Of a DNA stretch of 64,000 bases, positions 13,189 to 58,876 are shown piece after piece. A program made the position numbers and the translations under genes. The DNA comes from Escherichia coli 042 (GTDB taxonomy: Bacteria > Pseudomonadota > Gammaproteobacteria > Enterobacterales > Enterobacteriaceae). The DNA lies in NCBI RefSeq assembly GCF_000027125.1, contig NC_017626.1; one strand, 5' to 3'. The notes beneath the pieces were generated by a model. It had not been told where the DNA came from. It searched no databases and saw nothing but the letters and a program-made list of their open reading frames with translations. Position 1 is the first letter of the stretch. Each line of letters starts with the position of its first letter.

Positions 13189-14259
13189 TTATTTGATTTC
13201 AATTTTGTCCCACTCCCTGCCTCTGTCATCACGATACTGTGATGCCATGGTGTCCGACTTATGCCCGAGAAGATGTTGAGCAAACTTATCGCTTATCTGC
13301 TTCTCATAGAGTCTTGCAGACAAACTGCGCAACTCGTGAAATGTAGGCGGATCCCCTTCGAAGGAAAGACCTGATGCTTTTCGTGCGCGCATAAAATACC
13401 TTGATACTGTGCCGGATGAAAGCGGTTCACGACGAGTAGATGCAATTATGGTTTCTCCGCCAAGAATCTCTTTGCATTTATCAAGTGTTTCCTTCATTGA
13501 TATCCCGAGAGCATCAACATGCAATGTTGTAGGGATGGCAATTTTTACACCTGTTTTGCTTTGCTCGACATAAAGATATCCATCTACGATATCAGACCAC
13601 TTCATTTCGCATAAATCACCAACTCGCTGCCCGGTAACAACAGCCAGTTCCATTGCAAGTCTGAGCCAACATGGTGATGATTCTGCTGCTTGATAAATTT
13701 TCAGGTATTCGTCAGCCGTAAGTCTTGATCTCCTTACCTCTGATTTTGCTGCGCGAGTGGCAGCGACCGGGTTTGTTGTTATATGGCCTTCAGCTATTGC
13801 CTCTCGGAATGCATCGCTTAGTGTTGATCTGATTAACTTGGCTGACGCCGCCTTGCCCTCGTCTATGTATCCATTGAGCATTGCCGCAATTTCTTTTGTG
13901 GTGATGTTTTCAAGTGGAGCATCAGGCAGACCCCTCCTTATTGCTTTAATTTTGCTCATGTAATTTATGAGTGTCTTCTGCTTGATTCCTCTGTTGGCGA
14001 GGATTTTTTCGTAGCGATCAAGCCATGAATGTAACGTAACAGAATTATCACTGTTGATTCTCGCTGTCAGAGGCTTGTGTTTGTGTCCTGAAAATAACTC
14101 AATGTTGGCCTGTATAGCTTCAGTGATTGCTATCCTCCTGTCTCGGCCTAATCCAAACTCTTTACCCGTCCTTGGGTCCCTGTAGCAGTAATATCCATTG
14201 TTTCTTATATAAAGGTTAGGGGGTAAATCCCGGCGCTCATGACTTCGCCTTCTTCCCAT
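13189..14259 (-). CDS. int: Lambda integrase (tyrosine recombinase)
   Basis: 356 aa, MGRRRSHERRDLPPNLYIRNNGYYCYRDPRTGKEF..., essentially identical to recalled lambda Int. Confidence 0.97.
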   Translation of the reverse strand: MGRRRSHERRDLPPNLYIRNNGYYCYRDPRTGKEFGLGRDRRIAITEAIQANIELFSGHKHKPLTARINSDNSVTLHSWLDRYEKILANRGIKQKTLINYMSKIKAIRRGLPDAPLENITTKEIAAMLNGYIDEGKAASAKLIRSTLSDAFREAIAEGHITTNPVAATRAAKSEVRRSRLTADEYLKIYQAAESSPCWLRLAMELAVVTGQRVGDLCEMKWSDIVDGYLYVEQSKTGVKIAIPTTLHVDALGISMKETLDKCKEILGGETIIASTRREPLSSGTVSRYFMRARKASGLSFEGDPPTFHELRSLSARLYEKQISDKFAQHLLGHKSDTMASQYRDDRGREWDKIEIK

Positions 14260-37724: not shown

Positions 37725-38048
37725 ATGCTTCTGACAATGGAAGAGATTAAAGCCCAACTCCGGCTGGATGAGGATTTTGATGCTGATGACCGCCATCTGC
37801 AACTGCTGGCCTGTGCGGCGCAAAAGCGGACGGAAACGTATCTGAACCGGAAGCTCTATGCACCGGATGAAACCATTCCGGACAGCGATCCGGACGGGCT
37901 GCACCTGCCGGATGATATTCGTCTGGGGATGCTGATGCTTATCAGCCATTTTTACGAAAACCGCTCGTCGGTTACGGAAGTGGAGAAACTCGACATGCCG
38001 CAGAGTTTTGGCTGGCTTGTCGGCCCGTACAGGTACTTTCCGCAATGA
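37725..38048 (+). CDS. Head-tail connector (gp6-like)
   Basis: 107 aa; position after capsid. Confidence 0.65.
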   Translation: MLLTMEEIKAQLRLDEDFDADDRHLQLLACAAQKRTETYLNRKLYAPDETIPDSDPDGLHLPDDIRLGMLMLISHFYENRSSVTEVEKLDMPQSFGWLVGPYRYFPQ

Positions 38049-38455
38049 AAATTCGTCAGGCGCAGACCAGCGCAACCTACATTCTGCCGGACCCCGGTGA
38101 ACTGAATAAACGCGTCCTGATCCGCCAGCGGGTGGATATGCCCGCGGATAACTTTGGCGTGGAGCATCAATACCCGGTTACGTTCCGGACATGGGCGAAG
38201 GTTATCCAGACCAGTGCCACCACCTGGCAGGAAACCGCGCAGACTGGAGACGCCATCACCCATTACATCACCATTCGCTACCGCCGGGGGATCACCGCTG
38301 ATTATGAGGTGGTCTGCGGTGACAGTGTGTACCGGGTGAAACGTCAGCGCGATCTGAACGGGGCGCGGCGCTTTCTGCTGCTGGAGTGTACGGAACTGGG
38401 CGAATTTACGCAGAGTCACGGAGGCAGCAATGGCGACTCCCTTTTTTCACGTTGA
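38045..38455 (+). CDS. Head closure / head-tail adaptor protein
   Basis: 136 aa, overlapping neighbours in head-tail joining block. Confidence 0.55.
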   Translation: MKIRQAQTSATYILPDPGELNKRVLIRQRVDMPADNFGVEHQYPVTFRTWAKVIQTSATTWQETAQTGDAITHYITIRYRRGITADYEVVCGDSVYRVKRQRDLNGARRFLLLECTELGEFTQSHGGSNGDSLFSR

Positions 38456-38936
38456 TGTTCAGCAGCCCGCGGAGATGCGCTTTAACCGCGCCCGTGTCCG
38501 GCGGGCGTTTGTCACGATTGGGCAGCGTCATATGCGTGATGCCCGTCGGCTGGTGATGCGCCGTGCGCGGTCGGCACCGGGTGAAAATCCCGGTTATCAG
38601 ACCGGACGTCTGGCTCGTTCGATTGGTTACATGGTGCCGAGAGCCAGTAAAAAGCGAGCCGGTTTTATGACACGCATTGCCCCTAACCAGCGCAACGGGA
38701 AGGGGAACCGGATGATCTCTGGTGACTTCTATCCGACGTTTCTGTTTTTTGGTGTCCGGGGAGGAGCAAAACGTCGTCGTAGCCATCATCGTGGTGCATC
38801 CGGTGGCAGCGGCTGGCGGCTGGCTCCACGTAATAACTTTATGGTGGAAACTCTTGAAAAGAACCGCAGCTGGACACGCTATTTTCTGGCGCGGGAATTG
38901 CGTAAATCACTGAAGTCGGAGCGACGACGCAGATGA
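38430..38936 (+). CDS. Head-tail joining protein
   Basis: 168-aa basic protein in neck gene block. Confidence 0.5.
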   Translation: MATPFFHVDVQQPAEMRFNRARVRRAFVTIGQRHMRDARRLVMRRARSAPGENPGYQTGRLARSIGYMVPRASKKRAGFMTRIAPNQRNGKGNRMISGDFYPTFLFFGVRGGAKRRRSHHRGASGGSGWRLAPRNNFMVETLEKNRSWTRYFLARELRKSLKSERRRR

Positions 38937-39493
38937 AACTGACGCCTGTTATTGCTGCGCTGCGTGCCCGCTGCCCGTATTTTGAAAACCGGGTGGCAGG
39001 CGCGGCACAGTTCAAAAATCTGCCGGAGGTCGGAAAGCTGAGACTCCCGGCGGCGTATGTGGTACCGGGTGATGACTCTCCGGGAGAAAACAAAAGCCAG
39101 ACCGACTACTGGCAGGAGCTGAAAGAGGGCTTCTCCGTGGTTGTCATACTGAGTAACGGGCGTGATGAGCGCGGTCAGTTTGCTTCGTATGATGTGGTGG
39201 ACGATGTCCGGCAGATGCTCTTTAAGGCCCTGCTGGGCTGGACCCCGGAAGCGTGCGGTAACCCGATTACCTATGACGGCGGCACGCTGCTGGATCTGAA
39301 TCGTCATGAGCTGATTTATCAGTTCGATTTTTCGGTCATCAGCGAGCTGACCGAAGACGATACCCGCCAGCAGGATGAGCTGAACAGTCTGGATGAACTG
39401 CGAACGCTGGCGATTGATGTTGATTATTTCGATCCCGGTAACGGGCCTGACGGCGATATCGAACATCACACCGAAATAACCCTTCCTTCCTGA
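38933..39493 (+). CDS. Tail completion / neck protein
   Basis: 186-aa ORF immediately upstream of sheath gene. Confidence 0.5.
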   Translation: MKLTPVIAALRARCPYFENRVAGAAQFKNLPEVGKLRLPAAYVVPGDDSPGENKSQTDYWQELKEGFSVVVILSNGRDERGQFASYDVVDDVRQMLFKALLGWTPEACGNPITYDGGTLLDLNRHELIYQFDFSVISELTEDDTRQQDELNSLDELRTLAIDVDYFDPGNGPDGDIEHHTEITLPS

Positions 39494-39501
39494 GAATCTT
39501 C

Positions 39502-39672
39502 ATGTTTGTGAAACCTGTTAAAGGGCGGTCAGTGCCTGACCCTGCCCGCGGTGACCTTTTGCCCACCGAAGGGCGAAATGTTGACGAGAACAACTACTGG
39601 CTGCGCCGTGAAGCAGCGGGTGATATCCGGCGCGTGAATAAAAAGGTGAACACCGATGACGACAAGCTTTAA
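39502..39672 (+). CDS. Small hypothetical protein overlapping sheath start
   Basis: 56 codons from ATG 39502 to TAA 39670-39672; below track cutoff. Confidence 0.3.
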   Translation: MFVKPVKGRSVPDPARGDLLPTEGRNVDENNYWLRREAAGDIRRVNKKVNTDDDKL

Positions 39673-41152
39673 CACCATTCCGTCGAATACGCTGGTTCCG
39701 CTGTTTTATGCGGAAATGGATAACCAGGCGGCGAATACTGCACAGGACAGCGGGGCATCGTTGCTGATTGGTCACGCCAATAACGGTGCAGAGATTGTTG
39801 CCAACAGTCTGGTGCTGATGCCGTCGGCAGACTATGCACGCCAGATTTGTGGTGCGGGAAGTCAGCTGGCGCGTATGGTTGAGGCTTATCGCCAGACCGA
39901 CCCGTTTGGTGAGCTGTATGTGATTGCCGTTCCTGAATCCACGGGCGCGGCGGCAACAGTTACGCTGACGGTGACCGGGGCGGCAACCGAAACCGGCACG
40001 GTGAATGTTTATGTGGGACGTACCCGCGTGCAGGCACCGGTGACCAACGGCGATAACGTCGCGACCATTGCCAGCAGTATCCAGGATGCCATCAATGCCG
40101 TTCCGACTCTGCCGTTTACAGCTTCATCTTCGGCTGGTGTGGTCACGCTGACCGCGCGTCATAAGGGGCTTTGCGGGAATGAAATTCCTGTCAGCCTCAA
40201 TTACTACGGCTTCGGTGGGGGCGAAGTGCTGCCAGCGGGCGTACAGATTGCCGTGGCGACGGGGACCGCCGGAACGGGCGCTCCGGTTCTCACCGGCGCG
40301 GTGGCTGCAATGGCGGATGAGCCGTTTGATTATATCGGCCTGCCGTTCAACGACACGGCCTCCGTTAACACGCTGGTGACCGAGATGAACGATACCAGCG
40401 GTCGCTGGAGCTATGCGCGTCAGCTGTATGGTCATGTGTATACGGCAAAGACCGGTACGCTGTCAGAACTGGTGACCGCAGGTGACCAGTTTAACCAGCA
40501 GCACATTACCCTGGCGGGGTACGAAAAAGAGACCCAGACGCCTGCCGACGAACTGGCGGCAAGCCGTACCGCCCGCGCAGCGGTGTTTATTCGCAACGAT
40601 CCGGCACGTCCCACGCAGACCGGTGAGCTGGTGGGTATGCTGCCTGCGCCGAAGGGGAAACGGTTCACGATGACCGAACAACAGACCCTGCTGTCTCATG
40701 GCGTGGCAACGGCGTATGTCGAAAGCGGGGTACTGCGCATTCAGCGTGATGTCACCACGTACAGGAAAAACGCTTACGGGGTTGCGGATAACAGCTACCT
40801 AGACAGCGAGACGCTGCATACCAGCGCGTATGTACTGCGCAAACTGAAATCCGTCATTACCAGTAAGTACGGGCGTCACAAGCTTGCCAGCGACGGTACC
40901 CGCTTTGGTCCCGGTCAGGCGATTGTCACACCGGCGGTGATCAAAGGGGAACTGCTGGCAACCTACCGTCAGCTTGAGCGTGCGGGGATCGTGGAAAACT
41001 ACGAACTGTTTAAGCAGTACCTGGTTGTGGAGCGTGATGCCAGCGATCCGAACCGCCTGAACACGCTGTTCCCGCCTGACTATGTTAACCAGTTGCGTGT
41101 CTTTGCCGTGGTTAACCAGTTCCGTCTTCAGTATTCAGAGGAGTCTGCATAA
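39656..41152 (+). CDS. Contractile tail sheath protein (Mu L-like)
   Basis: 498 aa followed by tube, chaperone, tape measure. Confidence 0.85.
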   Translation: MTTSFNTIPSNTLVPLFYAEMDNQAANTAQDSGASLLIGHANNGAEIVANSLVLMPSADYARQICGAGSQLARMVEAYRQTDPFGELYVIAVPESTGAAATVTLTVTGAATETGTVNVYVGRTRVQAPVTNGDNVATIASSIQDAINAVPTLPFTASSSAGVVTLTARHKGLCGNEIPVSLNYYGFGGGEVLPAGVQIAVATGTAGTGAPVLTGAVAAMADEPFDYIGLPFNDTASVNTLVTEMNDTSGRWSYARQLYGHVYTAKTGTLSELVTAGDQFNQQHITLAGYEKETQTPADELAASRTARAAVFIRNDPARPTQTGELVGMLPAPKGKRFTMTEQQTLLSHGVATAYVESGVLRIQRDVTTYRKNAYGVADNSYLDSETLHTSAYVLRKLKSVITSKYGRHKLASDGTRFGPGQAIVTPAVIKGELLATYRQLERAGIVENYELFKQYLVVERDASDPNRLNTLFPPDYVNQLRVFAVVNQFRLQYSEESA

Positions 41153-41508
41153 TGGCCCGTATCGGGGGAACCTGTTATTTCAAAATTGACGGTCAGCAGC
41201 TATCGCTGACCGGCGGCATTGAGGTGCCCATGAACAGGACGGTCAATGATGACATCATCGGCCTGGACGGTTCAGTGGACCGCAAGGAAACTCACCGTGC
41301 GCCTTATGTCAAAGGGACCTTCAAGGTGCCGAAGAATTTTCCGGTGAGCAAAATCACCTCGTCTGATGAGATGACCATCACTGCCGAGCTGGCGAACGGT
41401 CAGGTCTATGTATTGTCGTCAGCCTGGCTGCACGGCGAAGCGAACCATAATGCCGAAGAAGGCACAGTCGATCTTGAGTTCCACGGTGAAGAAGGGGATT
41501 ACCAGTAA
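41152..41508 (+). CDS. Tail tube protein (Mu M-like)
   Basis: 118 aa directly after sheath. Confidence 0.8.
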   Translation: MARIGGTCYFKIDGQQLSLTGGIEVPMNRTVNDDIIGLDGSVDRKETHRAPYVKGTFKVPKNFPVSKITSSDEMTITAELANGQVYVLSSAWLHGEANHNAEEGTVDLEFHGEEGDYQ

Positions 41509-41777
41509 TGAAAGAGCTTGAGTTAAAGAAACCGATTATTGCTCATGGCGAGACACTCTCCGTACTGGAGTTTGATGAACCCACCGGGAAGGATGTCCGC
41601 GAGCTGGGGTATCCCTACCAGATGAATCAGGATGAGTCCGTCAGACTTCTGGCGCATGTGGTGTCGAAATACATTGTGCGGCTGGCGAAAGTGCCGCAAA
41701 GCTCTGTCGACCAGATGTCTCCGGCAGACCTGAATGCAGCGGCGTGGCTTGTGGCTGGTTTTTTCCTCCAGGCCTGA
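41508..41777 (+). CDS. Tail assembly chaperone
   Basis: 89 aa before tape measure; slippery heptamer T_TTT_TTC at 41759-41765. Confidence 0.75.
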   Translation: MKELELKKPIIAHGETLSVLEFDEPTGKDVRELGYPYQMNQDESVRLLAHVVSKYIVRLAKVPQSSVDQMSPADLNAAAWLVAGFFLQA

Positions 41778-41926
41778 CGGCTGAATACCTCACTGATCGC
41801 TTCTTTGACTGCGCCAGCTACTGGCGCATTAATCCCTTCGAATTGCTGAATATGCCGATCAGTGAAATTCCCTTGCTGGTCAGTCAGGCAAACAGGATAG
41901 AGCAGGAGAAACGCACACATGGCTGA
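41744..41926 (+). CDS. Predicted -1 frameshift extension of the tail assembly chaperone
   Basis: -1 frame ORF overlapping the chaperone 3' end and running to 41926, just before tape measure start. Confidence 0.55.
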   Translation: MACGWFFPPGLTAEYLTDRFFDCASYWRINPFELLNMPISEIPLLVSQANRIEQEKRTHG

Positions 41927-43751
41927 ATTTGAGCTTAAGGCGTTGATCACCGGTGTCGACAGGCTTTCTCCCGCGCTGTCGAAAATGCAAAAGAAAATCC
42001 GGGGATTTAAACGCCAGGCGGAAGAAGCGTCACAGGGTGGGCTGGCGCTTGGTGGCGGACTGGCAGCGGGGCTGACGCTTTCCCTGAAATCTTATGCCGA
42101 TCAGGAAAACGCCGCTACCGGGCTGAAAGTCGCCATGATGGATGCGAACGGCGAGGTTGGAAAGCGCTTTCAGGACATCAATAAACTGGCTATTGGCCTG
42201 GGTAACCAGCTACCCGGTACAACGGCTGATTTCCAGAACATGATGCAGATGCTGGTGCGTCAGGGGATCCCGGCAGAAAACATCCTGGGTGGTGTGGGTA
42301 AAGCGACAGCTTATCTTGCGGTACAACTGAAAAAAACACCGGAAGCGGCTGCTGAGTTTGCTGCAAAGATGCAGGATGCTACCGGAACGGCTTCAGAAGA
42401 CATGATGGGGCTGTTCGACACTATCCAGAAGGCGTTTTATCTGGGCGTTGACGATACCAACATGTTGTCCTTCTTCACTAAAACCAGTTCTGTTCTGAAG
42501 ATGGTGAACAAGGACGGTCTTCAGGCTGCACAGAGCCTTGCCCCTATCAGCGTCATGATGGATCAGATGGGGATGAACGGGGAGTCGGCAGGTAATGCCC
42601 TGCGAAAAGTTATCCAGTCCGGATTAAGCGTTAAGAAAATCAGGGACGTCAATAAAGTCATGGCCCGCCAGAAACTCGGGGTACAGCTCGATTTTACTGA
42701 CGGCAAAGGGAGTTTTGGCGGTCTTGATAACATGTTTAAGCAACTGGCAAAGCTGCGAAAACTGACCGACGTTAAGCGAACAGGTGTACTTAAGGCAATA
42801 TTTGGTGATGATGCCGAAACCCTTCAGGTGGTCAATGCTCTGATCGATAAAGGAAAGGATGGTTACGATCAGATCCAGCAGAAGATGAATAAACAGGCCA
42901 GCCTGAATAAACGTGTTCAGGCACAGCTTGGTACGCTGTCCAACCTGTGGGAGGCAATGACGGGGACCGCAACTAACGGTCTTGCAGCTATTGGCGGCGC
43001 ATTTTCTGGTGACGCTAAAAATATCACGCAATGGTTGGGGGCGTTGGGGGAAAAATTCACGAAGTTTGCGGATGAAAATCCCCGGGTTATTCGCGGCGTC
43101 GTCGGGCTTGCTGCCGGTCTTGCGATTCTGAAACTGGGATTGATGGGCGTTGGCGGTGCCATCAGTATTGTCAGCAGGATCATGTCGATGACGCCGATTG
43201 GCATGATTGCGACGGCGATAGCCCTGGCTGCGGGATTAATTATCACTAACTGGGATGTTGTCGGACCTTATTTTAAGAAACTCTGGGAAACCATTGGTCC
43301 TTATTTTGAGGCTGGCTGGGAACTCCTAAAGAAAGTTTTTGCCTGGTCGCCGCTGGGGATGGTGATCAATAACTGGGGACCGGTTGTTAAGTGGTTTCAG
43401 GATATGTGGGACAAGCTGAAGCCAATTATTGAGTGGTTTACCGACAGTTCCGGTGACACGGTCGATGCCATTAACTCTGCGCAGTGGGGCGCGGGTGCTT
43501 ATGATGCTTATGGGACGGGAATACCGGCGCGGGGATACACACCTTATCCGGCGGTGGATCCGGCTCAGTCAAACAACGCCTCCGATGCCACAGGCCCGAA
43601 TCCCTTCATGATTAACAAAGCTTCTGCGCCAAAAGTTGATGGCGAGATCAAGGTTTCATTTATGAATATGCCACCAGGTATGCGGGTTACGGAAACACGT
43701 TCCAGTGGCATTGATATTAATCACGATGTTGGGTACACCAGATTTAGGTAA
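41919..43751 (+). CDS. Tail tape measure protein
   Basis: 610 aa, Ala/Gly-rich helical with TM-like segments. Confidence 0.88.
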   Translation: MAEFELKALITGVDRLSPALSKMQKKIRGFKRQAEEASQGGLALGGGLAAGLTLSLKSYADQENAATGLKVAMMDANGEVGKRFQDINKLAIGLGNQLPGTTADFQNMMQMLVRQGIPAENILGGVGKATAYLAVQLKKTPEAAAEFAAKMQDATGTASEDMMGLFDTIQKAFYLGVDDTNMLSFFTKTSSVLKMVNKDGLQAAQSLAPISVMMDQMGMNGESAGNALRKVIQSGLSVKKIRDVNKVMARQKLGVQLDFTDGKGSFGGLDNMFKQLAKLRKLTDVKRTGVLKAIFGDDAETLQVVNALIDKGKDGYDQIQQKMNKQASLNKRVQAQLGTLSNLWEAMTGTATNGLAAIGGAFSGDAKNITQWLGALGEKFTKFADENPRVIRGVVGLAAGLAILKLGLMGVGGAISIVSRIMSMTPIGMIATAIALAAGLIITNWDVVGPYFKKLWETIGPYFEAGWELLKKVFAWSPLGMVINNWGPVVKWFQDMWDKLKPIIEWFTDSSGDTVDAINSAQWGAGAYDAYGTGIPARGYTPYPAVDPAQSNNASDATGPNPFMINKASAPKVDGEIKVSFMNMPPGMRVTETRSSGIDINHDVGYTRFR

Positions 43752-43781
43752 AGACGAACAGGGAGGGCCGCCCTCCCTGAA

Positions 43782-44193
43782 CTTACTGTGCGAACACGCA
43801 ATTTCGGCCTGATGGGGAGCCGACAATTCTGGACATTTTTTCGCAAATAACAGTTACTTGTTCTCCTTTTTTAAGAGCAGCAGCTGTTGATTTTTCAGAG
43901 TCTTGCATCTCCATTCTTGCTGGCATGAATTCATTTTCAGTTCTGAATTTAATAATTATAGAGTCAGTAAAGTCCTTATCAATGGATTGTACGATACCTC
44001 TAACGGCGATTAATTTACCTTTTAACTGTTCATCGGTAGCGACTTCATTTTCTTCATACTCTTTAAACAGCTGTCGAGCAGTAGTGTTGTAGATTTCTTT
44101 TTGCGGTGCCGCAGCTTCCGTATCGGATGAGTATGAAGAATTAGAGCCTTTATCGTTACCAGTAAATATTACTACTGATAATAAATATGGGAC
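43782..44193 (-). pseudogene. Decayed OB-fold-like gene (no start codon, one frameshift) in an AT-rich island
   Basis: Minus-strand reading frame split between two frames around an A-run near 43980; no ATG/GTG/TTG in the upstream part. Confidence 0.4.
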
Positions 44194-44197
44194 TTAT

Positions 44198-45523
44198 ATG
44201 ACGTGGAAAGACAGACTTCAGGACGCGTCATTTCGCGGCGTGCCGTTTAAGGTTGAAGAAGAAAGTGCGGGAACCGGTCGCCGTGTGGAAACACATGAAT
44301 ACCCGAACCGCGACAAACCCTATACCGAAGACCTGGGGAAAATCACTTTTCGCCCGTCCATCACGGCTTATGTGGTGGGAGATGACTGCTTTGACCAGCG
44401 CGATCGCCTGATTGACGCGCTGAATAAACCCGGTCCCGGCACGCTTGTCCATCCGACATACGGTGAGCTGAAAGTCTGTGTTGACGGAGAAGTTCGGGTC
44501 AGCACATCGAAGAGTGAAGGGCGTATTGTCCGCTTTGACCTGAAGTTTGTCGAAGCGGGAGAACTCTCTTACCCCACTTCAGGTGCGGCGACGGCGCAGA
44601 CGCTGATGTCATCCTGTTCTGCACTGGATGACTGCATCAGTGACAGCTTCAGAGGTTTCAGTATCGATGGCGTGGCGGATTTCGTGCAGAACGACGTCGT
44701 CGGTAATGTCAGCACAATGCTTGGGTATGTTTCTGATGCGATGAAAGTGGTGGATTCTGCCGTATCGGATGCTGCCAGGCTGTTGCAGGGGGATATCTCG
44801 GTACTTCTGCCGCCACCATCGTCAGGCAAAAATCTCGTTGAGCAGGTGCAGAAAATGTGGCGTACCGGGAAACGCCTTTATGGTAACGCCAGCGACCTGG
44901 TCACCATGATCAAAACGCTTTCCGGTGTCAGCCTCGGCAGCGATCTGCAACCGCGCGGCGTCTGGAAAACGGACAGTAAAACCACCGCCACGGCTACGCA
45001 GCAGCGTAACGTGGTTGCCAGCACCCTTCGTACGACCGCAATCAGCGAAGCGGCGTATGCCGTCACCCGATTGCCTGCGCCAACAACTTCCGCGGTGATG
45101 CAGAATGCCGCAGTGGGGCAGGCAACAACACCTGCGCAGAGCACTGGCTGGCCTTCCGTCACGCATCCGGCACTGAACAATGCACCGACGGTGAAAAACA
45201 CAGTTGACCTGCCGACGTGGGAAGAACTGACTGACATTCGCGACACACTGAATACGGCAATTGATAAGGAGTTGTCCCGTACAACCAGTGATGCGCTGTT
45301 TCTGGCGCTGCGCCGGGTGAAAGCAGATCTGAATGCGGATATCAACACGCGCCTTGAACAGTCTGCACGGATCATTCAGCGCACGCCGGATGAGGTTTTA
45401 CCCGCGCTGGTGCTGGCGGCGACCTGGTTTGATAACGCGGCGCGTGACGCGGACATTATCCGGCGTAATGCCATTACGCATCCCGGATTTGTGCCGGTGA
45501 TCCCTCTGAAGGTGCCAGTGTAA
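44198..45523 (+). CDS. Mu N-like DNA circularisation/tail protein
   Basis: 441 aa; N-terminus WKDRLQDASFRGVPFKVEE...HEYPNRDKPY; position after tape measure. Confidence 0.75.
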   Translation: MTWKDRLQDASFRGVPFKVEEESAGTGRRVETHEYPNRDKPYTEDLGKITFRPSITAYVVGDDCFDQRDRLIDALNKPGPGTLVHPTYGELKVCVDGEVRVSTSKSEGRIVRFDLKFVEAGELSYPTSGAATAQTLMSSCSALDDCISDSFRGFSIDGVADFVQNDVVGNVSTMLGYVSDAMKVVDSAVSDAARLLQGDISVLLPPPSSGKNLVEQVQKMWRTGKRLYGNASDLVTMIKTLSGVSLGSDLQPRGVWKTDSKTTATATQQRNVVASTLRTTAISEAAYAVTRLPAPTTSAVMQNAAVGQATTPAQSTGWPSVTHPALNNAPTVKNTVDLPTWEELTDIRDTLNTAIDKELSRTTSDALFLALRRVKADLNADINTRLEQSARIIQRTPDEVLPALVLAATWFDNAARDADIIRRNAITHPGFVPVIPLKVPV

Positions 45524-46602
45524 TGAACGATAACGTCACGCTACGGGTAAATGGCCGGGAGTGGAATGGCTGGACATCGGTGCGCATCGGTGCCGGTGTT
45601 GAACGACTGGCGCGGGATTTCAGTGTGGAGATCACTCGCCAGTGGCCGGGAGATGAGGGTATCACCACGCTTCAGCCGCGCATTAAAAACGGTTCAAAAG
45701 TGGAAGTGCTGATTGGTGATGAGCTGGTGATCACCGGCTGGGTGGAGGCGACTCCCGTTCGTTACGATGCCCGTTCGGTCAGCACCGGTATTGCCGGACG
45801 TAGTCTGACGGCTGACCTGATTGACTGTGCAGCCGAACCGACACAGTTTAACGGACGCTCGCTGGTGCAGATTGCGCAGGCGCTTGCTGCGCCTTTCGGC
45901 ATTGAGGTGGTGAACAGCGGTGCGCCGTCGGGTGTTATTCCTGATGTTCAGCCTGATCACGGTGAAACGGTGATTGAGGTAATCAACAAAATACTCGGTC
46001 AGCAGCAGGCGCTGGCTTATGACGACCCGCACGGCAGGCTGGTGATTGGTGGTATTGGCTCAACGCGGGCACATACCGCGCTGGTACTCGGGGAAAACAT
46101 CCTTTCCTGCGATACGGAGAAGAGTATCCGGGAGCGGTTTTCTGTTTACCAGGTGGCGGGGCAGCGTGCCGGAAACGACGATGATTTCGGTGAGGCCACC
46201 ACCACCGCGCTGCGGGCCCGCACAGAGGACGCATTTATTGCCCGTTACCGTCCGATGTATATCAGGCAGACAGGACAGGCTACGGGGGCTGGCTGTATTG
46301 CCCGTGCGGACTTTGAAGCCCGACAACGGGCGGCGCGGACGGATGAAACCACCTATGTGGTGCAGGGCTGGCGACAGGGTAACGGTACGCTGTGGCAGCC
46401 CAACCAGCGGGTGATTGTCTTTGATCCGGTCTGTGGTTTCGACAACACCGAACTGCTTGTTTCGGAAGTCACGTTTACTCAGGACCAGAACGGCACCCTG
46501 ACGGAAATCCGTGTCGGCCCACCAGATGCTTATCTGCCTGAACCCGAAGCCCCCGGCGCGCGGAAAAAGAAAAAAGCCAGAGTACAGGAGGACCCGTTCT
46601 GA
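45523..46602 (+). CDS. Baseplate hub protein (Mu P-like)
   Basis: 359 aa in Mu-like baseplate gene order. Confidence 0.7.
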   Translation: MNDNVTLRVNGREWNGWTSVRIGAGVERLARDFSVEITRQWPGDEGITTLQPRIKNGSKVEVLIGDELVITGWVEATPVRYDARSVSTGIAGRSLTADLIDCAAEPTQFNGRSLVQIAQALAAPFGIEVVNSGAPSGVIPDVQPDHGETVIEVINKILGQQQALAYDDPHGRLVIGGIGSTRAHTALVLGENILSCDTEKSIRERFSVYQVAGQRAGNDDDFGEATTTALRARTEDAFIARYRPMYIRQTGQATGAGCIARADFEARQRAARTDETTYVVQGWRQGNGTLWQPNQRVIVFDPVCGFDNTELLVSEVTFTQDQNGTLTEIRVGPPDAYLPEPEAPGARKKKKARVQEDPF

Positions 46603-47150
46603 TGAGGACGATTGAAGCCATGCAGCGACAACTCCTCGGCCTGATTGGGCGGGCCGTGGTGAAAAGCATCAGTGCCGCCACGAAATGTCAGACCGTGGAT
46701 GTGTCCCTGATTGCCGGTGAACCCAAAGCCGGGGTTGAACATCTTGAACCCTACGGTTTTACTGCAAGGGCAAACATCGGTGCGGAAGCGGTGGTGTTGT
46801 TTCCGGATGGCGACCGTTCTCATGCGGTGGTTGTTACGGTGTCGGACCGTCGCTACCGCCTGAAAGGGCTGCAGACGGGGGAGGTGGCTGTCTATGACGA
46901 TCAGGGGCAGTCCGTGACGCTGACCCGGGAGGGGATTGTGGTGGACGGTGCAGGTAAAACGATCACGTTTCGCAATGCACCTGAAGCACGTTTTGAAATG
47001 GACCTGGAAGTGACAGGACAGGTGAAAGACCTGTGCGACTCCGGCGGCACCACCATGTCAGCGATGCGGCTTGCCTATAACGGGCATCGTCACAGAGAGA
47101 ACGGTCAGGGCAGTAACACCGACAAACCTGATAAATCGATGGAGGCATGA
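46602..47150 (+). CDS. Baseplate spike/assembly protein V-like
   Basis: 182 aa. Confidence 0.7.
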   Translation: MRTIEAMQRQLLGLIGRAVVKSISAATKCQTVDVSLIAGEPKAGVEHLEPYGFTARANIGAEAVVLFPDGDRSHAVVVTVSDRRYRLKGLQTGEVAVYDDQGQSVTLTREGIVVDGAGKTITFRNAPEARFEMDLEVTGQVKDLCDSGGTTMSAMRLAYNGHRHRENGQGSNTDKPDKSMEA

Positions 47151-50834: not shown

Positions 50835-52310
50835 CTAAAGTGAATCTATTCCATTTTTCCAAATAAGAACTTTTTTGTCTTGTATTTTATGAGTGCTATC
50901 AGGCTGCCCAAACTGTTTTATGGCCTTTTCCTCTTGCTCTACATCATCAGCAATTAAAAAATTAGCTCCTTTTTGGTACCATTCTTTTTTTGATAACCAA
51001 TTATATGGTGTGAATCTATCACCATACGACTCAAATGGAGCTACGTTGATATCACTAAATCCAGCAACAGATGATGCAAACCAAAATGATGCATAACCTC
51101 TTTGTAGTTTATTTTTTATTAAGAAATCTCTTAATTCTATTGTAATATCATTTTTATTAACAATGTTTTTTGTTGTTGCCATCGTTGGCAACGATAACGC
51201 AATAACGATTAATGATATTAGTAAATTTGTCTTCACTGGTAAGGAGAAAGAATTTCTAGCAATCACAATTGACATGAAAATAAATGTTGGGACTATGTAT
51301 CTAATTGAGAAAAGATTTGTTGGCCTGTCACTTGAAACATAGGCAATCAACATGACTAATGATGATACAATAAGAACCTGGTCAATAAAATCAATTTCTT
51401 TAAATTTAAGAATGTTTTTATAAGATAAAAATAAGAATACAAAAATGAAAAACACCTTTATCATGGTGAATAATGAGTTAAAGCTACCTATCTCCATTCC
51501 AAACGCGTACCCACCAAAAAATTTGAATACGCCCATGATAACAAGAGATATGTTGCTTGTTATTTGTTGAAACTCTACTATGTGAGGTTTGGTTATGCCT
51601 GGCAGGTTAAATCCACCAAGCTTAATGAATATAAATGATATGATCTCAGCAATAAATATAGATGATATAGTGAAAACCAACAATAACAAATCATTAGTAT
51701 TCAACGAATCTCTTTTCATTAGAGAAGCATACATTCTATATATGCAAACAAAAACTATAGGTATTATAAAGGCATATTTAGATATATCATCACTAAAAAC
51801 AAGCAACGATAACATAAATACATATGGAAAAAGTAATTTTAAATCATTTTTCTTTCTGTATCTATCTATTATTAGTATGATCGCCAGCATGTAAATGTAC
51901 GCACCAATATGTATACATGCTATAAGCATTATACTTGATGAGAAAACCGTTGGAATTCCAAATACAGAAAGAACAGGCCATAACGATGCCCTACTTTTAG
52001 TATGAGAGATATATAGCGATAGTGTTACTAATATAGACATGAAAACTCCAGGCACAATATAGTACAGATTTTCATTAAATCCTATTATTTTTATCGCTAT
52101 AGCATATGGTATTATTTCTGTGAAATAGAATGATACAGTTGATAAATCCCACCCACTGAGAAAAATATTTCCTTCAGTAATATCCCTTGCCTCTCTGAAT
52201 GAAGACATGACATCTGAGTTTGGAATTATGTTTTTAGCAATCATTGAGTAAATTATTGATAATACAATAAATGTTGCCAGCCAATATAAAAGCTCAAGCT
52301 TCTTGCTCAT
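50835..52310 (-). CDS. Serotype-specific O-antigen glucosyltransferase (GtrC-type)
   Basis: 491-aa polytopic membrane protein, strongly AT-rich, downstream of gtrA-gtrB in same operon. Confidence 0.75.
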
Positions 52311-53224
52311 TTTTTACCCTTAAGTACATACTTTGGACGCTGCTTAACTTCAATGTAAATTCTACCAATATACTCACCGAGCACTCCAATCCCAATTAAC
52401 TGGATGCCGCCAAGAAATAATATTGATACAAGAATTGAAGGGTATCCAGGTACATTATTACCAAAAATTAATTTATCAATTATCATCCATGAACCGTATG
52501 TAAATGATATACATGCAATAAATAACCCAATATAGGTCCACATGCGAAGCGGGAATGTTGAGAAGCTAGTGATCCCTTCCAGCGCCAAGTTCCATAGCTT
52601 CCATCCATTGAACTTTGTGCTTCCTGCAACGCGTTCTGCTCGCGCATATTCTACGACATCGGTTCGACCACCAACCCAGCTCAGCACACCCTTCATAAAC
52701 AGGTTTCGTTCTGGCATGAGCTTAATATTTTCTACTACTTCGCGAGACATGAGCCGGAAGTCGCCAACATTCTCTTCTATCTGAGGGTTGCTGATTTTGT
52801 TATGAAGTTTATAGAACCACTCAGCAGATTTACGCTTCAGCCTGCTGTCAGTGGAGCGGTCAGAGCGTTTAGCCAGAACCATATCTGCACCGGCCTGCCA
52901 TTTCTCTATCAAGTGAGGAATAACTTCGATAGGGTCTTGCAGATCAACGTCAATCGGGATAATTGCCTCCCCGGTAGCATGGTCCAGACCTGCGAACAGG
53001 GCGGGTTCTTTGCCGAAGTTACGTGTGAACGACAGCGAAACCACAAGCGGGTCGGCAACAGCGAGCTCGTTGATAATTGATTCTGTAGCGTCTTTGCTGC
53101 CATCGTTTATGAAGACTATCTCGACTTCATGCTGCTGAAGCCCTTCAAATTCGCGCACAGTTTTATAAAAAATAGGTATCGTGGCCTCTTCGTTAAAGAC
53201 CGGAACGACTAAAGAAATTTTCAT
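52307..53224 (-). CDS. gtrB: Bactoprenol glucosyltransferase GtrB
   Basis: 305 aa; GT2 N-terminal domain ([13 protein letters not shown]...DGSKD) plus C-terminal TM helices. Confidence 0.9.
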
Positions 53225-58134: not shown

Positions 58135-58876
58135 TAAACAAGCCATTGCAGCGGCATTTGGTCGGGCAGCCGCGCACTATGAGCAACATGCGGATCTACA
58201 GCGCCAGAGTGCTGACGTCTTACTGGCAATGCTTCCACAGCGTAAATACACCCACGTACTGGACGCGGGTTGTGGACCTGGCTGGATGAGCCGCCACTGG
58301 CGGGAACGTCACGCGCAGGTGACGGCGTTAGATCTCTCGCCGCCAATGCTTGTTCAGGCACGCCAGAAGGATGCCGCAGACCATTATCTGGCGGGAGATA
58401 TCGAATCCCTGCCGTTAGCGACTGCAACCTTCGATCTTGCATGGAGCAATCTCGCGGTGCAGTGGTGCGGTAATTTATCCACGGCACTCCGCGAGCTATA
58501 CAGGGTGGTGCGCCCCGGAGGCGTGGTCGCGTTTACCACGCTGGTGCAGGGATCGCTCCCTGAATTACATCAGGCGTGGCAGGTGGTGGACGAGCGCCCG
58601 CATGCTAATCGCTTTTTACCGCCAGATAAAATCGAACAGTCGCTGAACGGCCTGCATTATCAACATCATATTCAGCCCATCACGCTGTGGTTTGATGATG
58701 CGCTCAGTGCCATGCGTTCGCTGAAAGGCATCGGTGCCACGCATCTTCATGAAGGGCGCGACCCGCGAATATTAACGCGTTCGCAGTTGCAGCGATTACA
58801 ACTGGCCTGGCCGCAACAACAGGGGCGATATCCTCTGACGTATCATCTTTTTTTGGGAGTAATTGCTCGTGAGTAA
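58121..58876 (+). CDS. bioC: Malonyl-ACP O-methyltransferase
   Basis: Trimmed to [17 protein letters not shown]; SAM-binding motif LDAGCGPG. Confidence 0.95.

What the first reader, a model, noticed from the sequence alone, without database searches (positions are those of the whole stretch)
41744..41926. Probable programmed -1 frameshift in the tail assembly chaperone
The chaperone ORF (41508-41777) contains the slippery heptamer T_TTT_TTC at 41759-41765 near its 3' end. The -1 frame continues open to 41926, ending just as the tape measure gene begins. This is the conserved G/GT-type arrangement.
Basis: partly seen in the sequence, partly recalled or inferred. Interest (0 to 1): 0.4.

Follow-up and report, generated by a model that had tools for sequence, protein, structure and literature searches.

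The report
Frameshifted tail chaperone in SfV-like prophage
A small tail-assembly gene of an E. coli prophage very probably makes a second, longer protein when the ribosome slips back one base at a run of T's. This is the well-known trick of phages lambda and P2, so it is ordinary biology, but none of the public annotations I looked at record it for this phage group.

Summary
The 89-codon ORF 41508-41777 is a Pfam Phage_TAC_7 tail assembly chaperone lying between the tube and tape-measure genes of an SfV-like prophage. It carries T_TTT_TTC at 41759-41765 in X_XXY_YYZ register. The -1 frame runs 53 more codons to TGA 41924-41926, overlapping the tape-measure ATG (41919) by 8 nt, the same geometry as P2 E+E'/T.

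In 34 related loci, down to about 30% identity, an in-register slippery heptamer sits at the same aligned position: TTTTTTC, TTTTTTT, TTTTTTG, GGGTTTT or AAATTTT. In each, the -1 frame continues 50-61 codons. The extension shows a clear coding signature in the -1 frame only, and most homologs have no start codon in that frame.

The extension is a distant relative of P2 E'. The fusion models confidently and resembles phage tail assembly chaperones.

It is shared by most close relatives but absent from the SfIV/ST64B branch and from P2.

Verdict: a real but textbook G/GT-type -1 programmed frameshift, unannotated in every record examined for this group. No experiment exists for this group. Low interest.

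The parts
39656..41152 (+). tail sheath gene (498 aa), upstream context
   Evidence: Pfam Phage_sheath_1/1C/domII. Annotated as sheath in SfV and in E. coli DG341-1.
41152..41508 (+). tail tube gene (118 aa)
   Evidence: Pfam PF10618 Tail_tube, E=2.4e-33.
41508..41777 (+). tail assembly chaperone, 0-frame product (89 aa; the 'G'/'E' analogue)
   Evidence: Pfam PF10109 Phage_TAC_7, E=6.8e-15. PGAP names it 'phage tail assembly protein'. Synonymous fraction of differing codons is 0.67 in this frame against 0.04-0.08 in the others.
41759..41765 (+). slippery heptamer T_TTT_TTC (P-site UUU, A-site UUC, both read by tRNA-Phe)
   Evidence: Sequence. An in-register heptamer sits at the aligned position in 34/34 loci. 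GGT TTT TTC is a single codon choice in all 9 close genera, against 3.8% of amino-acid-invariant degenerate codon columns in the tube, chaperone body and tape-measure start.
41765..41926 (+). -1 frame extension (53 codons plus TGA; the 'T'/E' analogue). Conceptual fusion = join(41508..41765, 41765..41926), 139 aa.
   Evidence: Translation. Variable columns by codon position 26/16/40; synonymous fraction 0.49 in this frame against 0.09-0.10 in the others. phrog_32181, E=4e-40. A profile of the extension hits P2 E' at 18.9 bits. AF2 pLDDT is 92-95 over the extension.
41772..41889 (+). candidate stimulatory RNA structure: an extended stem-loop that begins 6 nt after the heptamer. Closing helix 41772-78/41883-89, middle helix 41790-99/41856-65, apical hairpin 41810-28.
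   Evidence: MFE -45 kcal/mol, z=-4.56, 0/200 shuffles. z=-4.67 against a minimum of -3.28 in 200 local control windows. The same architecture appears in 6 further genera. 83.5% of cells are paired against 22-37% for slid controls, and the covariation score is reached by 4/500 shuffles. Its role is inferred, not shown.
41810..41828 (+). apical 8-bp hairpin UGCGCCAG-CUA-CUGGCGCA
   Evidence: dG -12.9 kcal/mol. The four degenerate stem codons are invariant in 9 genera while the loop codon varies AGC/AGT/AGA. The background rate of invariant codons is 9/237.
41904..41908 (+). AGGAG, probable Shine-Dalgarno of the tape-measure gene, inside the extension
   Evidence: Sequence, 10 nt before ATG 41919. 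Inference only.
41919..43751 (+). tail tape measure gene (610 aa)
   Evidence: Pfam PF10145, E=5.7e-27. Annotated as tape measure in SfV and E. coli records.

Best explanation
Proposed mechanism. Most ribosomes translating the chaperone gene read GGU UUU UUC and stop at UGA 41775-41777, giving the 89-aa chaperone. A minority slip back one base on U_UUU_UUC. The two tRNA-Phe move from UUU/UUC to UUU/UUU, and decoding continues from C41765 in the -1 frame for 53 codons. This gives a 139-aa fusion (...WLVAGFF-PPGLTAEYL...RTHG) that ends 8 nt inside the tape-measure gene.

By analogy with lambda gpG/gpGT and P2 E/E+E', the shared N-domain should coat the tape-measure protein. The extra C-domain should recruit tube subunits, and the slip frequency would set the ratio of the two proteins.

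In this branch of the family the slip is probably boosted by a large stem-loop (41772-41889) that starts 6 nt after the heptamer.

Shown here: the sequence geometry, its conservation, the coding signature of the extension, family membership, and the unusual stability and partial conservation of the RNA structure.

Inferred: that the slip occurs, that it is ribosomal, its frequency, the role of the structure, and the division of labour between the two proteins.
For: - Heptamer in register, -1 frame open to the tape-measure start.
- Pfam Phage_TAC_7 above its cutoff, and tube-chaperone-tape-measure gene order.
- 34/34 homologous loci keep an in-register heptamer of five different sequences at the aligned GF(F/L) position. 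They also keep a 50-61 codon -1 extension, and in most the -1 stop overlaps the tape-measure start by 8 nt. Fusion length is 131-153 aa, mostly 137-141.
- The codon before the Phe codons always ends in T although it encodes G, R, N, S or P.
- Coding signature in the -1 frame only. This includes extension codons 5-27, which lie before any in-frame start codon.
- No -1-frame start codon upstream of the slip in 22/28 loci.
- P2 E+E' aligns colinearly, with the same slip position and the same 8-nt overlap with gene T.
- The extension profile matches P2 E' (18.9 bits) and the Mu +1-frame extension (10 bits).
- AF2 model of the fusion: pLDDT 94, pTM 0.84. The top BFVD hits are tape-measure and tail assembly chaperones.
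- U_UUU_UUC is a proven -1 shift site in E. coli: 0.12% alone and 7.6% with the IS3 pseudoknot (Sharma et al. 2014, PMC4066793, supplement).
- RNA structure: z=-4.56/-4.67, a local outlier, shared architecture, synonymous-site suppression, weak covariation.
Against: - No experimental evidence for this phage group was found.
- None of 11 phage records or 2 PGAP E. coli records annotates slippage.
- The bare heptamer shifts at only about 0.1% in reporter contexts.
- The stem-loop is absent or different in EPP-1, AH07, CwR94, Kosakonia, the Hamiltonella-like locus, the whole SfIV/ST64B branch and P2, so it is not essential to the family.
- Covariation support is modest, and the structure tested was derived from the window itself.
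- No Rfam family matches.
Confidence: 0.85

Rival explanations
1. The same two proteins arise by transcriptional slippage. RNA polymerase would add one extra U on the T6 run, so a subset of mRNAs encodes the fusion in a single frame.
For: - 32 of 34 loci have a T6 or T7 run at the site.
- The protein made would be identical, so sequence data alone cannot fully separate the two mechanisms.
Against: - The run is short. Efficient slippage by E. coli RNA polymerase usually needs about 8-9 identical bases or more (general knowledge).
- Two homologs keep the arrangement with only T4 runs, inside valid tandem-slippage heptamers G_GGT_TTT and A_AAT_TTT.
- A stem-loop 6 nt downstream fits a ribosomal stimulator.
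- RefSeq annotates the homologous P2 site as a translational frameshift.
Confidence: 0.06
2. The -1 ORF is an independent small gene (60 aa from GTG 41744). It is called this way in phage vB_EcoM-689R6, by some gene callers, and as phrog_32181.
For: - A GTG lies at 41744.
- It is annotated as a separate hypothetical protein in one phage record and in some assemblies.
Against: - 22/28 homologs have no ATG, GTG or TTG in the -1 frame between the upstream stop and the slip site.
- No Shine-Dalgarno-like sequence lies before 41744 (the preceding bases, CTGAATGCAGC, are listed).
- The coding signature starts right at the slip.
- The heptamer and its register are conserved at synonymous sites.
- The fusion models as one compact protein.
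Confidence: 0.03
3. The frameshift occurs on the heptamer alone, as reported for P2. The 41772-41889 stem-loop would then serve another purpose, such as protecting the ribosome-poor 141-nt stretch from Rho or RNases, or it reflects constraints unrelated to recoding.
For: - The SfIV/ST64B branch and P2 have no comparable structure (z about 0 to -1.9).
- P2-like phages are reported to lack one (PMC3091744).
- Some type-1 members have lost it.
Against: - The first base pair is 6 nt after the heptamer, the canonical spacing.
- The branch with the structure uses UUUUUUC, the less shifty heptamer without a stimulator. The structure-less branch uses UUUUUUU (0.12% against 0.33%).
Confidence: 0.35
4. 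Chance open frame in a non-coding spacer, with no second product.
For: Public annotation leaves 41778-41918 empty.
Against: - Strong -1-frame coding signature.
- tblastn finds the extension in phages at about 40% identity.
- No promoter-like or terminator-like sites lie in the gap.
- It is the only large gap in a tightly packed operon.
Confidence: 0.01

Closest known systems
Phage P2 E / E+E' (-1 frameshift at T_TTT_TTG in the FETUD tail operon; Christie et al. 2002, Xu et al. 2004, as cited in PMC3091744)
   Same: - Same Pfam family for the N-domain (PF10109).
- Same position between the tube and tape-measure genes.
- The slip occurs at the aligned GGT-TTT-TTN / 'GF(F/L)' position.
- Products are 89 and 139 aa here, 91 and 142 aa in P2.
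- The -1 stop overlaps the tape-measure ATG by 8 nt in both.
- The extension is distantly homologous to E'.
   Different: - The heptamer ends in C, not G.
- The extension does not reach the Pfam PF06528 model.
- Pairwise protein similarity is not significant.
- A large stem-loop follows the site here, while P2 has none (z=-1.9; PMC3091744).
- The surrounding tail genes are Mu/SfV-like rather than P2-like.
Phage lambda gpG / gpGT (G_GGA_AAG, about 30:1 ratio; Levin et al. 1993; Xu et al. 2004, 2013, 2014, reviewed in PMC5009743)
   Same: Same gene position and the same logic: a nested pair of chaperones sharing an N-terminus, with the extension reached by a -1 slip near the 3' end.
   Different: - No detectable sequence similarity.
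- Siphovirus rather than myovirus tail.
- Different heptamer and different tRNAs.
Phage Mu gp41 and its frameshift extension (-2 frameshift; Xu et al. 2004, as cited in PMC2628397 and PMC5009743)
   Same: - The neighbouring tail genes (sheath L, tube M, DNA circulation N, baseplate P) are Mu-like.
- The extension profile gives a weak match (10 bits) to the Mu +1-frame extension.
   Different: - Mu reaches the extension in the +1/-2 frame. Here that frame closes after a few codons and only -1 is open.
- Mu gp41 is 144 aa and does not align significantly.
Bacterial -1 PRF cassettes with a 3' stimulator (dnaX, IS911, IS3)
   Same: An X_XXY_YYZ heptamer followed after 6 nt by a stable RNA structure.
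   Different: - The structure here is a 118-nt irregular three-helix stem-loop, not a compact hairpin or pseudoknot.
- No conserved upstream Shine-Dalgarno-like stimulator was seen (reading).
- No Rfam model matches.

Membership tests
G/GT-type tail assembly chaperone frameshift (Xu, Hendrix & Duda 2004) | The gene pair lies between the major tail/tube gene and the tape-measure gene | tested here: met
   Tube 41152-41508, chaperone 41508-41777, tape measure 41919-43751.
G/GT-type tail assembly chaperone frameshift (Xu, Hendrix & Duda 2004) | The downstream ORF overlaps the 3' end of the upstream ORF in another frame and lacks its own conserved start | tested here: met
   The -1 frame is open through the slip to 41926. 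22/28 homologs have no start codon in that frame.
G/GT-type tail assembly chaperone frameshift (Xu, Hendrix & Duda 2004) | [quoted passage not shown] | tested here: met
   T_TTT_TTC at 41759-41765. 34/34 loci carry an in-register heptamer at the aligned position.
G/GT-type tail assembly chaperone frameshift (Xu, Hendrix & Duda 2004) | The extension is a real protein-coding region | tested here: met
   Codon-position variability 26/16/40. Synonymous fraction 0.49-0.60 in the -1 frame against 0.05-0.15 in the others. tblastn finds it at about 40% identity.
G/GT-type tail assembly chaperone frameshift (Xu, Hendrix & Duda 2004) | Two proteins with a common N-terminus are made at a fixed ratio, and both are needed for tail assembly | not testable with these tools
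   Needs proteomics, reporter assays and genetics. No paper on this phage group was found.
Pfam PF10109 Phage_TAC_7 (chaperones E, gp41, gp14) | HMM score above the gathering threshold | tested here: met
   55.3 bits against a cutoff of 25, residues 4-86. P2 E scores 47.8 bits on the same model.
Pfam PF06528 Phage_P2_GpE (the E' extension domain) | HMM match of the extension | tested here: not met
   No hit at E<=10. A profile built here from 20 extensions does match P2 E' residues 102-135 at 18.9 bits. The extension is therefore related, but outside the curated model.
Mu-type -2 frameshift | The extension is encoded in the +1/-2 frame | tested here: not met
   The +1 frame closes at 41784. 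Only -1 is open.
Canonical -1 PRF cassette (heptamer + 5-9 nt spacer + stable 3' structure) | A stable, conserved structure at the right spacing | tested here: inconclusive
   6-nt spacer and z=-4.6, a local outlier shared by 7 of 12 close relatives, with weak covariation. It is absent in the other branch and in P2, and its function is untested.
Transcriptional slippage site | A homopolymer run long enough for RNA polymerase slippage (about 8-9 or more) | tested here: not met
   The run is T6 here. Two homologs have only T4.

The most novel reading that the evidence does not exclude
The type-1 branch (the one the window belongs to) may have evolved a 118-nt three-helix stem-loop (41772-41889) lying entirely inside the -1 extension. 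This structure would tune the chaperone to fusion ratio, compensating for the weaker UUUUUUC heptamer. If so, this would be a phage tail-chaperone frameshift with a large, lineage-specific RNA stimulator, whereas its relatives (the SfIV/ST64B branch and P2) show no comparable structure.

A more speculative extension also exists. The U-run/CCUCC at the slip site is complementary to the tape-measure Shine-Dalgarno region (41904-41911). That pairing could couple tape-measure initiation to chaperone translation.
Probability: 0.3. Interest if true: 0.4.

Novelty: new member of a known kind. Interest (0 to 1): 0.2.

Why it matters
Practically, it fixes an annotation gap. This region is present at 80% or more of its length in 894 of 5,426 complete E. 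coli genomes, and in SfV, SfI, SfII, SfIV, ST64B, phiP27 and other phages. Every record examined lists only the 89-aa protein, or splits off the extension as an orphan 'hypothetical' (phrog_32181), leaving a 141-nt hole.

Conceptually, it adds nothing new to the established rule that long-tailed phages make G and GT-like chaperones by recoding.

The modest added value is twofold:
- A clean comparative data set shows one homologous slip position served by five different heptamers.
- There is a candidate structured stimulator that is present in one branch and absent in its sister branch. This is a natural system for asking how the chaperone ratio is tuned.

Tried and rejected
- NCBIfam gave no hit for the fusion or the extension.
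- Pfam gave nothing meaningful for the extension alone.
- Rfam, with permissive thresholds, gave only noise.
- Sequence and fold searches against solved structures found nothing.
- Pairwise BLASTP to P2 E+E' and Mu gp41 was not significant. hhalign to a single P2 sequence was colinear but weak (E=0.022).
- Literature searches for an explicit statement about SfV, SfII, SfIV or ST64B found none. Xu et al. 2004, Christie et al. 2002 and Allison et al. 2002 are not held, so I cannot say whether SfV was already listed there.
- My first consensus folds were cut at +112 nt. They therefore missed the 3' arms and suggested only an isolated hairpin 44 nt downstream. Folding the whole extension corrected this.
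- I considered ribosome collision at the distal hairpin and dropped it. 0-frame ribosomes terminate before they reach it, and the hairpin is simply the tip of the larger structure.
- I looked for an upstream Shine-Dalgarno-like stimulator by eye in the alignments and found nothing conserved.
- The IMG/VR scan returned 80 near-identical loci, of little comparative use.
- The 8-bp hairpin sequence is not repeated elsewhere in the window, so it is not an operator-like repeat.

Full report
**What is there.**
The window around the finding is 100% identical over at least 8.6 kb to the chromosome of E. coli DG341-1. It is 99% identical to Shigella phage SfV and 98-99% to SfII and SfI.

The genes are a Mu-like contractile-tail module:
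- sheath 39656-41152
- tube 41152-41508
- an 89-codon ORF 41508-41777
- tape measure 41919-43751
- DNA circulation protein 44198-45523.

The 89-aa product matches Pfam PF10109, 'Phage tail assembly chaperone proteins, E, or 41 or 14', at 55 bits against a cutoff of 25. All neighbouring genes abut or overlap. The 141 nt between this ORF and the tape-measure gene is the only large gap.

**Check of the observation.**
The 0-frame codons are GCT GGT TTT TTC CTC CAG GCC TGA, so T_TTT_TTC at 41759-41765 is in exact X_XXY_YYZ register. The -1 frame runs on to TGA 41924-41926, which is 53 codons after the slip. It overlaps the tape-measure ATG 41919 by 8 nt. The +1 frame closes at 41784.

The stop frequency in -1 frames of genes in this window gives P about 0.03 for 53 open codons. 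None of 40 other in-frame heptamers in 73 putative genes has a -1 frame extending 100 nt past its stop.

**Comparative evidence.**
tblastn with the conceptual 139-aa fusion finds both halves, in two frames, in SfV, SfII, SfI, SfIV, ST64B, phiP27, F1055, EPP-1, AH07 and BgVeeders33, at about 39-44% identity for the more distant ones.

I collected three sets of related loci:
- 7 phage loci
- 20 loci from different species in the GTDB genome set
- 6 more from protein look-ups.

In all 34 loci (the window plus these 33) an in-register slippery heptamer lies at the same aligned position, the 'GF(F/L)' motif:
- TTTTTTC in the window's branch ('type 1')
- TTTTTTT in the SfIV/ST64B/phiP27 branch ('type 2')
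- TTTTTTG in an Accumulibacter genome (the P2 heptamer)
- GGGTTTT in an Acetobacteraceae genome
- AAATTTT in Chromobacterium.

The -1 extension is 50-61 codons, and in most loci it ends 8 nt into the tape-measure gene. The 0-frame stop, in contrast, wanders from 1 to 21 codons after the slip. Conceptual fusions are 131-153 aa, mostly 137-141.

The codon before the Phe codons encodes Gly, Arg, Asn, Ser or Pro in different lineages, but always ends in T. In nine genera with alignable type-1 sequences, GGT TTT TTC is a single codon choice. Only 9 of 237 (3.8%) amino-acid-invariant degenerate codons in the tube, chaperone body and tape-measure start are equally invariant.

**The extension is coding and has no start of its own.**
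Variable columns by -1-frame codon position are 26/16/40 (type 1) and 23/17/43 (type 2). Among differing codons, 49-50% are synonymous in the -1 frame, against 6-15% in the other two frames.

The signal is just as strong (60%) in extension codons 5-27. These lie after the 0-frame stop and before the first in-frame TTG or ATG.

Of the 28 loci tabulated, 22 have no ATG, GTG or TTG in the -1 frame between the upstream stop and the slip. The window's GTG 41744 is not conserved. The gap contains no promoter-like or terminator-like site. Ribosomes, or the reading frame of the mRNA, must therefore enter this region from the chaperone frame.

**Relation to known systems.**
P2 E/E+E' carries an annotated -1 frameshift in RefSeq. 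Its geometry is nearly identical: GGT TTT TTG in the context VVGFL, products of 91 and 142 aa, and the E+E' stop overlapping gene T by 8 nt. In a 21-sequence alignment P2 is colinear and the slip-site Phe is invariant.

A profile built from 20 extensions, with P2 excluded, matches P2 E' residues 102-135 at 18.9 bits. That is the region covered by Pfam PF06528. The profile matches the Mu +1-frame extension at 10 bits. The curated PF06528 model itself does not reach the extension here.

Mu, whose other tail genes are the closest named relatives, is reported to use a -2 shift (PMC2628397, PMC5009743). Here only -1 is possible.

AlphaFold2 models the fusion confidently as one protein (pLDDT 94, pTM 0.84). 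Its best matches among predicted viral structures are 'tape measure chaperone' and 'tail assembly chaperone' proteins. No solved structure is similar.

**A candidate stimulator.**
My early folds were cut too short and showed only an 8-bp hairpin 44 nt downstream.

Folding the whole extension shows that 41766-41895 forms an extended stem-loop of -45 kcal/mol, with z=-4.56 and 0 of 200 shuffles as stable. My own control gave z=-4.67, against a minimum of -3.28 in 200 equally long windows across 38000-47000.

The first base pair is at 41772, 6 nt after the heptamer. The structure has three parts:
- closing helix GCCUGAC/GUCAGGC (41772-78 with 41883-89)
- middle helix 41790-99 with 41856-65
- apical hairpin 41810-28.

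The same architecture is the MFE fold in Buttiauxella, Citrobacter, Enterobacter, Leclercia, Cronobacter and Salmonella relatives (z from -2.4 to -4.3). EPP-1, AH07 and CwR94 fold differently. Kosakonia and a Hamiltonella-like locus show nothing unusual.

On nine ungapped sequences, 83.5% of cells pair, against 22-37% for slid partners. Eight pairs change on both sides (reached by 26/500 shuffles). The covariation score is 0.125 against 0.093 (reached by 4/500). This is suggestive only, because the structure tested came from one of the sequences.

The four degenerate codons in the apical stem are invariant in all nine genera, while the loop codon varies.

The type-2 branch has z about 0 in SfIV, ST64B, phiP27 and Lonsdalea, though one type-2 relative (Erwinia S63) scores -3.9 with a different fold; P2 is at z=-1.9. 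The P2 result agrees with reports that P2-like sites have no hairpin (PMC3091744).

In E. coli reporters, UUUUUUC shifts at 0.12% alone and 7.6% with a strong stimulator. UUUUUUU shifts at 0.33% and 10.2% (Sharma et al. 2014, supplement). The branch with the weaker heptamer is thus the one with the structure. I rate a stimulatory role at about even odds.

**Mechanism and rivals.**
The best explanation (0.85) is tandem -1 slippage of two tRNA-Phe on U_UUU_UUC. It would yield an 89-aa chaperone and a minor 139-aa fusion, with roles as in lambda G/GT and P2 E/E+E' (PMC5009743).

- Transcriptional slippage on the T6 run would give the same protein and cannot be excluded from sequence alone. However, the run is short, and two homologs keep the arrangement with T4 runs inside valid tandem-slip heptamers (0.06).
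- Independent initiation at GTG 41744 is contradicted by the missing starts in most homologs (0.03).
- A chance ORF is excluded by the coding signature.

**Novelty.**
The phenomenon is textbook, and membership in PF10109 already predicts it. None of the 11 phage records or 2 PGAP E. coli records I opened annotates it.

In a 5.8-billion-protein collection the family is represented almost only by 89-aa 'phage tail assembly protein' entries. There are three singleton full-length fusions from raw assemblies.

I could not read Xu et al. 2004 to see whether SfV was listed there. I file the finding as a new, unannotated member of a known kind, with low interest. The lineage-specific stem-loop is the only mildly new element.

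Noticed in passing
L012:1450-1462 and L013:1450-1462 (IMG/VR prophage contigs); proteins P0001-P0003: Two of 80 near-identical IMG/VR copies have an extra G before the T run (GCT GGG TTT TTT CCT). The 139-aa fusion is then encoded in one frame and the short form is lost. Three singleton full-length 'fused' proteins also exist in raw assemblies. These may be real mutants or homopolymer sequencing errors.
   Followed up: partly
window 43783-44169 (- strand), with a hairpin at about 43750-43781: An AT-rich minus-strand ORF sits between the tape-measure and DNA-circulation genes. PGAP annotates it as 'OB-fold protein', and it matches Pfam tRNA_anti-like (PF12869, E=2.6e-16, profile positions 34-131 of 146). 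It has no canonical start codon before 43926; the annotated start is ATA. A GC-rich hairpin follows it. SfV has only 45 nt at this position, so it looks like an inserted, possibly 5'-truncated, moron.
   Followed up: partly
window 41760-41767 with 41904-41911: The consensus fold pairs the slip-site U-run plus CCU (UUUUUCCU) with the purine-rich Shine-Dalgarno region of the tape-measure gene (AGGAGAAA). The pairing is kept in 9/9 relatives, with one-sided changes only. It may be a trivial U-run/purine complementarity, or a link between chaperone translation and tape-measure initiation.
   Followed up: no
L007, L008, L009, L010 and L097-L108 (SfIV, F1055, ST64B, phiP27 and relatives): In the sister branch the heptamer is T_TTT_TTT. 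The 0-frame continues 20-21 codons past the slip as a Ser/Thr/Glu-rich tail, so 0 and -1 frames overlap for about 63 nt. Four of the five folded show no unusually stable downstream structure (z about 0); Erwinia S63 reaches z=-3.9 with a different fold.
   Followed up: partly
window 13189-14259 (-), 50835-52310 (-), 52307-53224 (-): Prophage context. A lambda-type integrase lies at one end. At the other end is a family-2 glycosyltransferase (GtrB-like) followed by a 491-aa protein with no Pfam match. This is consistent with an O-antigen-modifying (serotype-converting) cassette, as in SfV.
   Followed up: partly
window 27431-27437 and 58849-58855 (+): Two other in-frame T_TTT_TTG heptamers lie 5-6 codons before the stops of their ORFs. 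Their -1 frames close within 3-5 codons, so they are not recoding candidates.
   Followed up: yes
L011:956-1010 (Burkholderia phage BgVeeders33): This distant relative has its own GC-rich hairpin starting 7 nt after its T_TTT_TTC (z=-2.7). That hints at independent acquisition of stimulators in different lineages.
   Followed up: no
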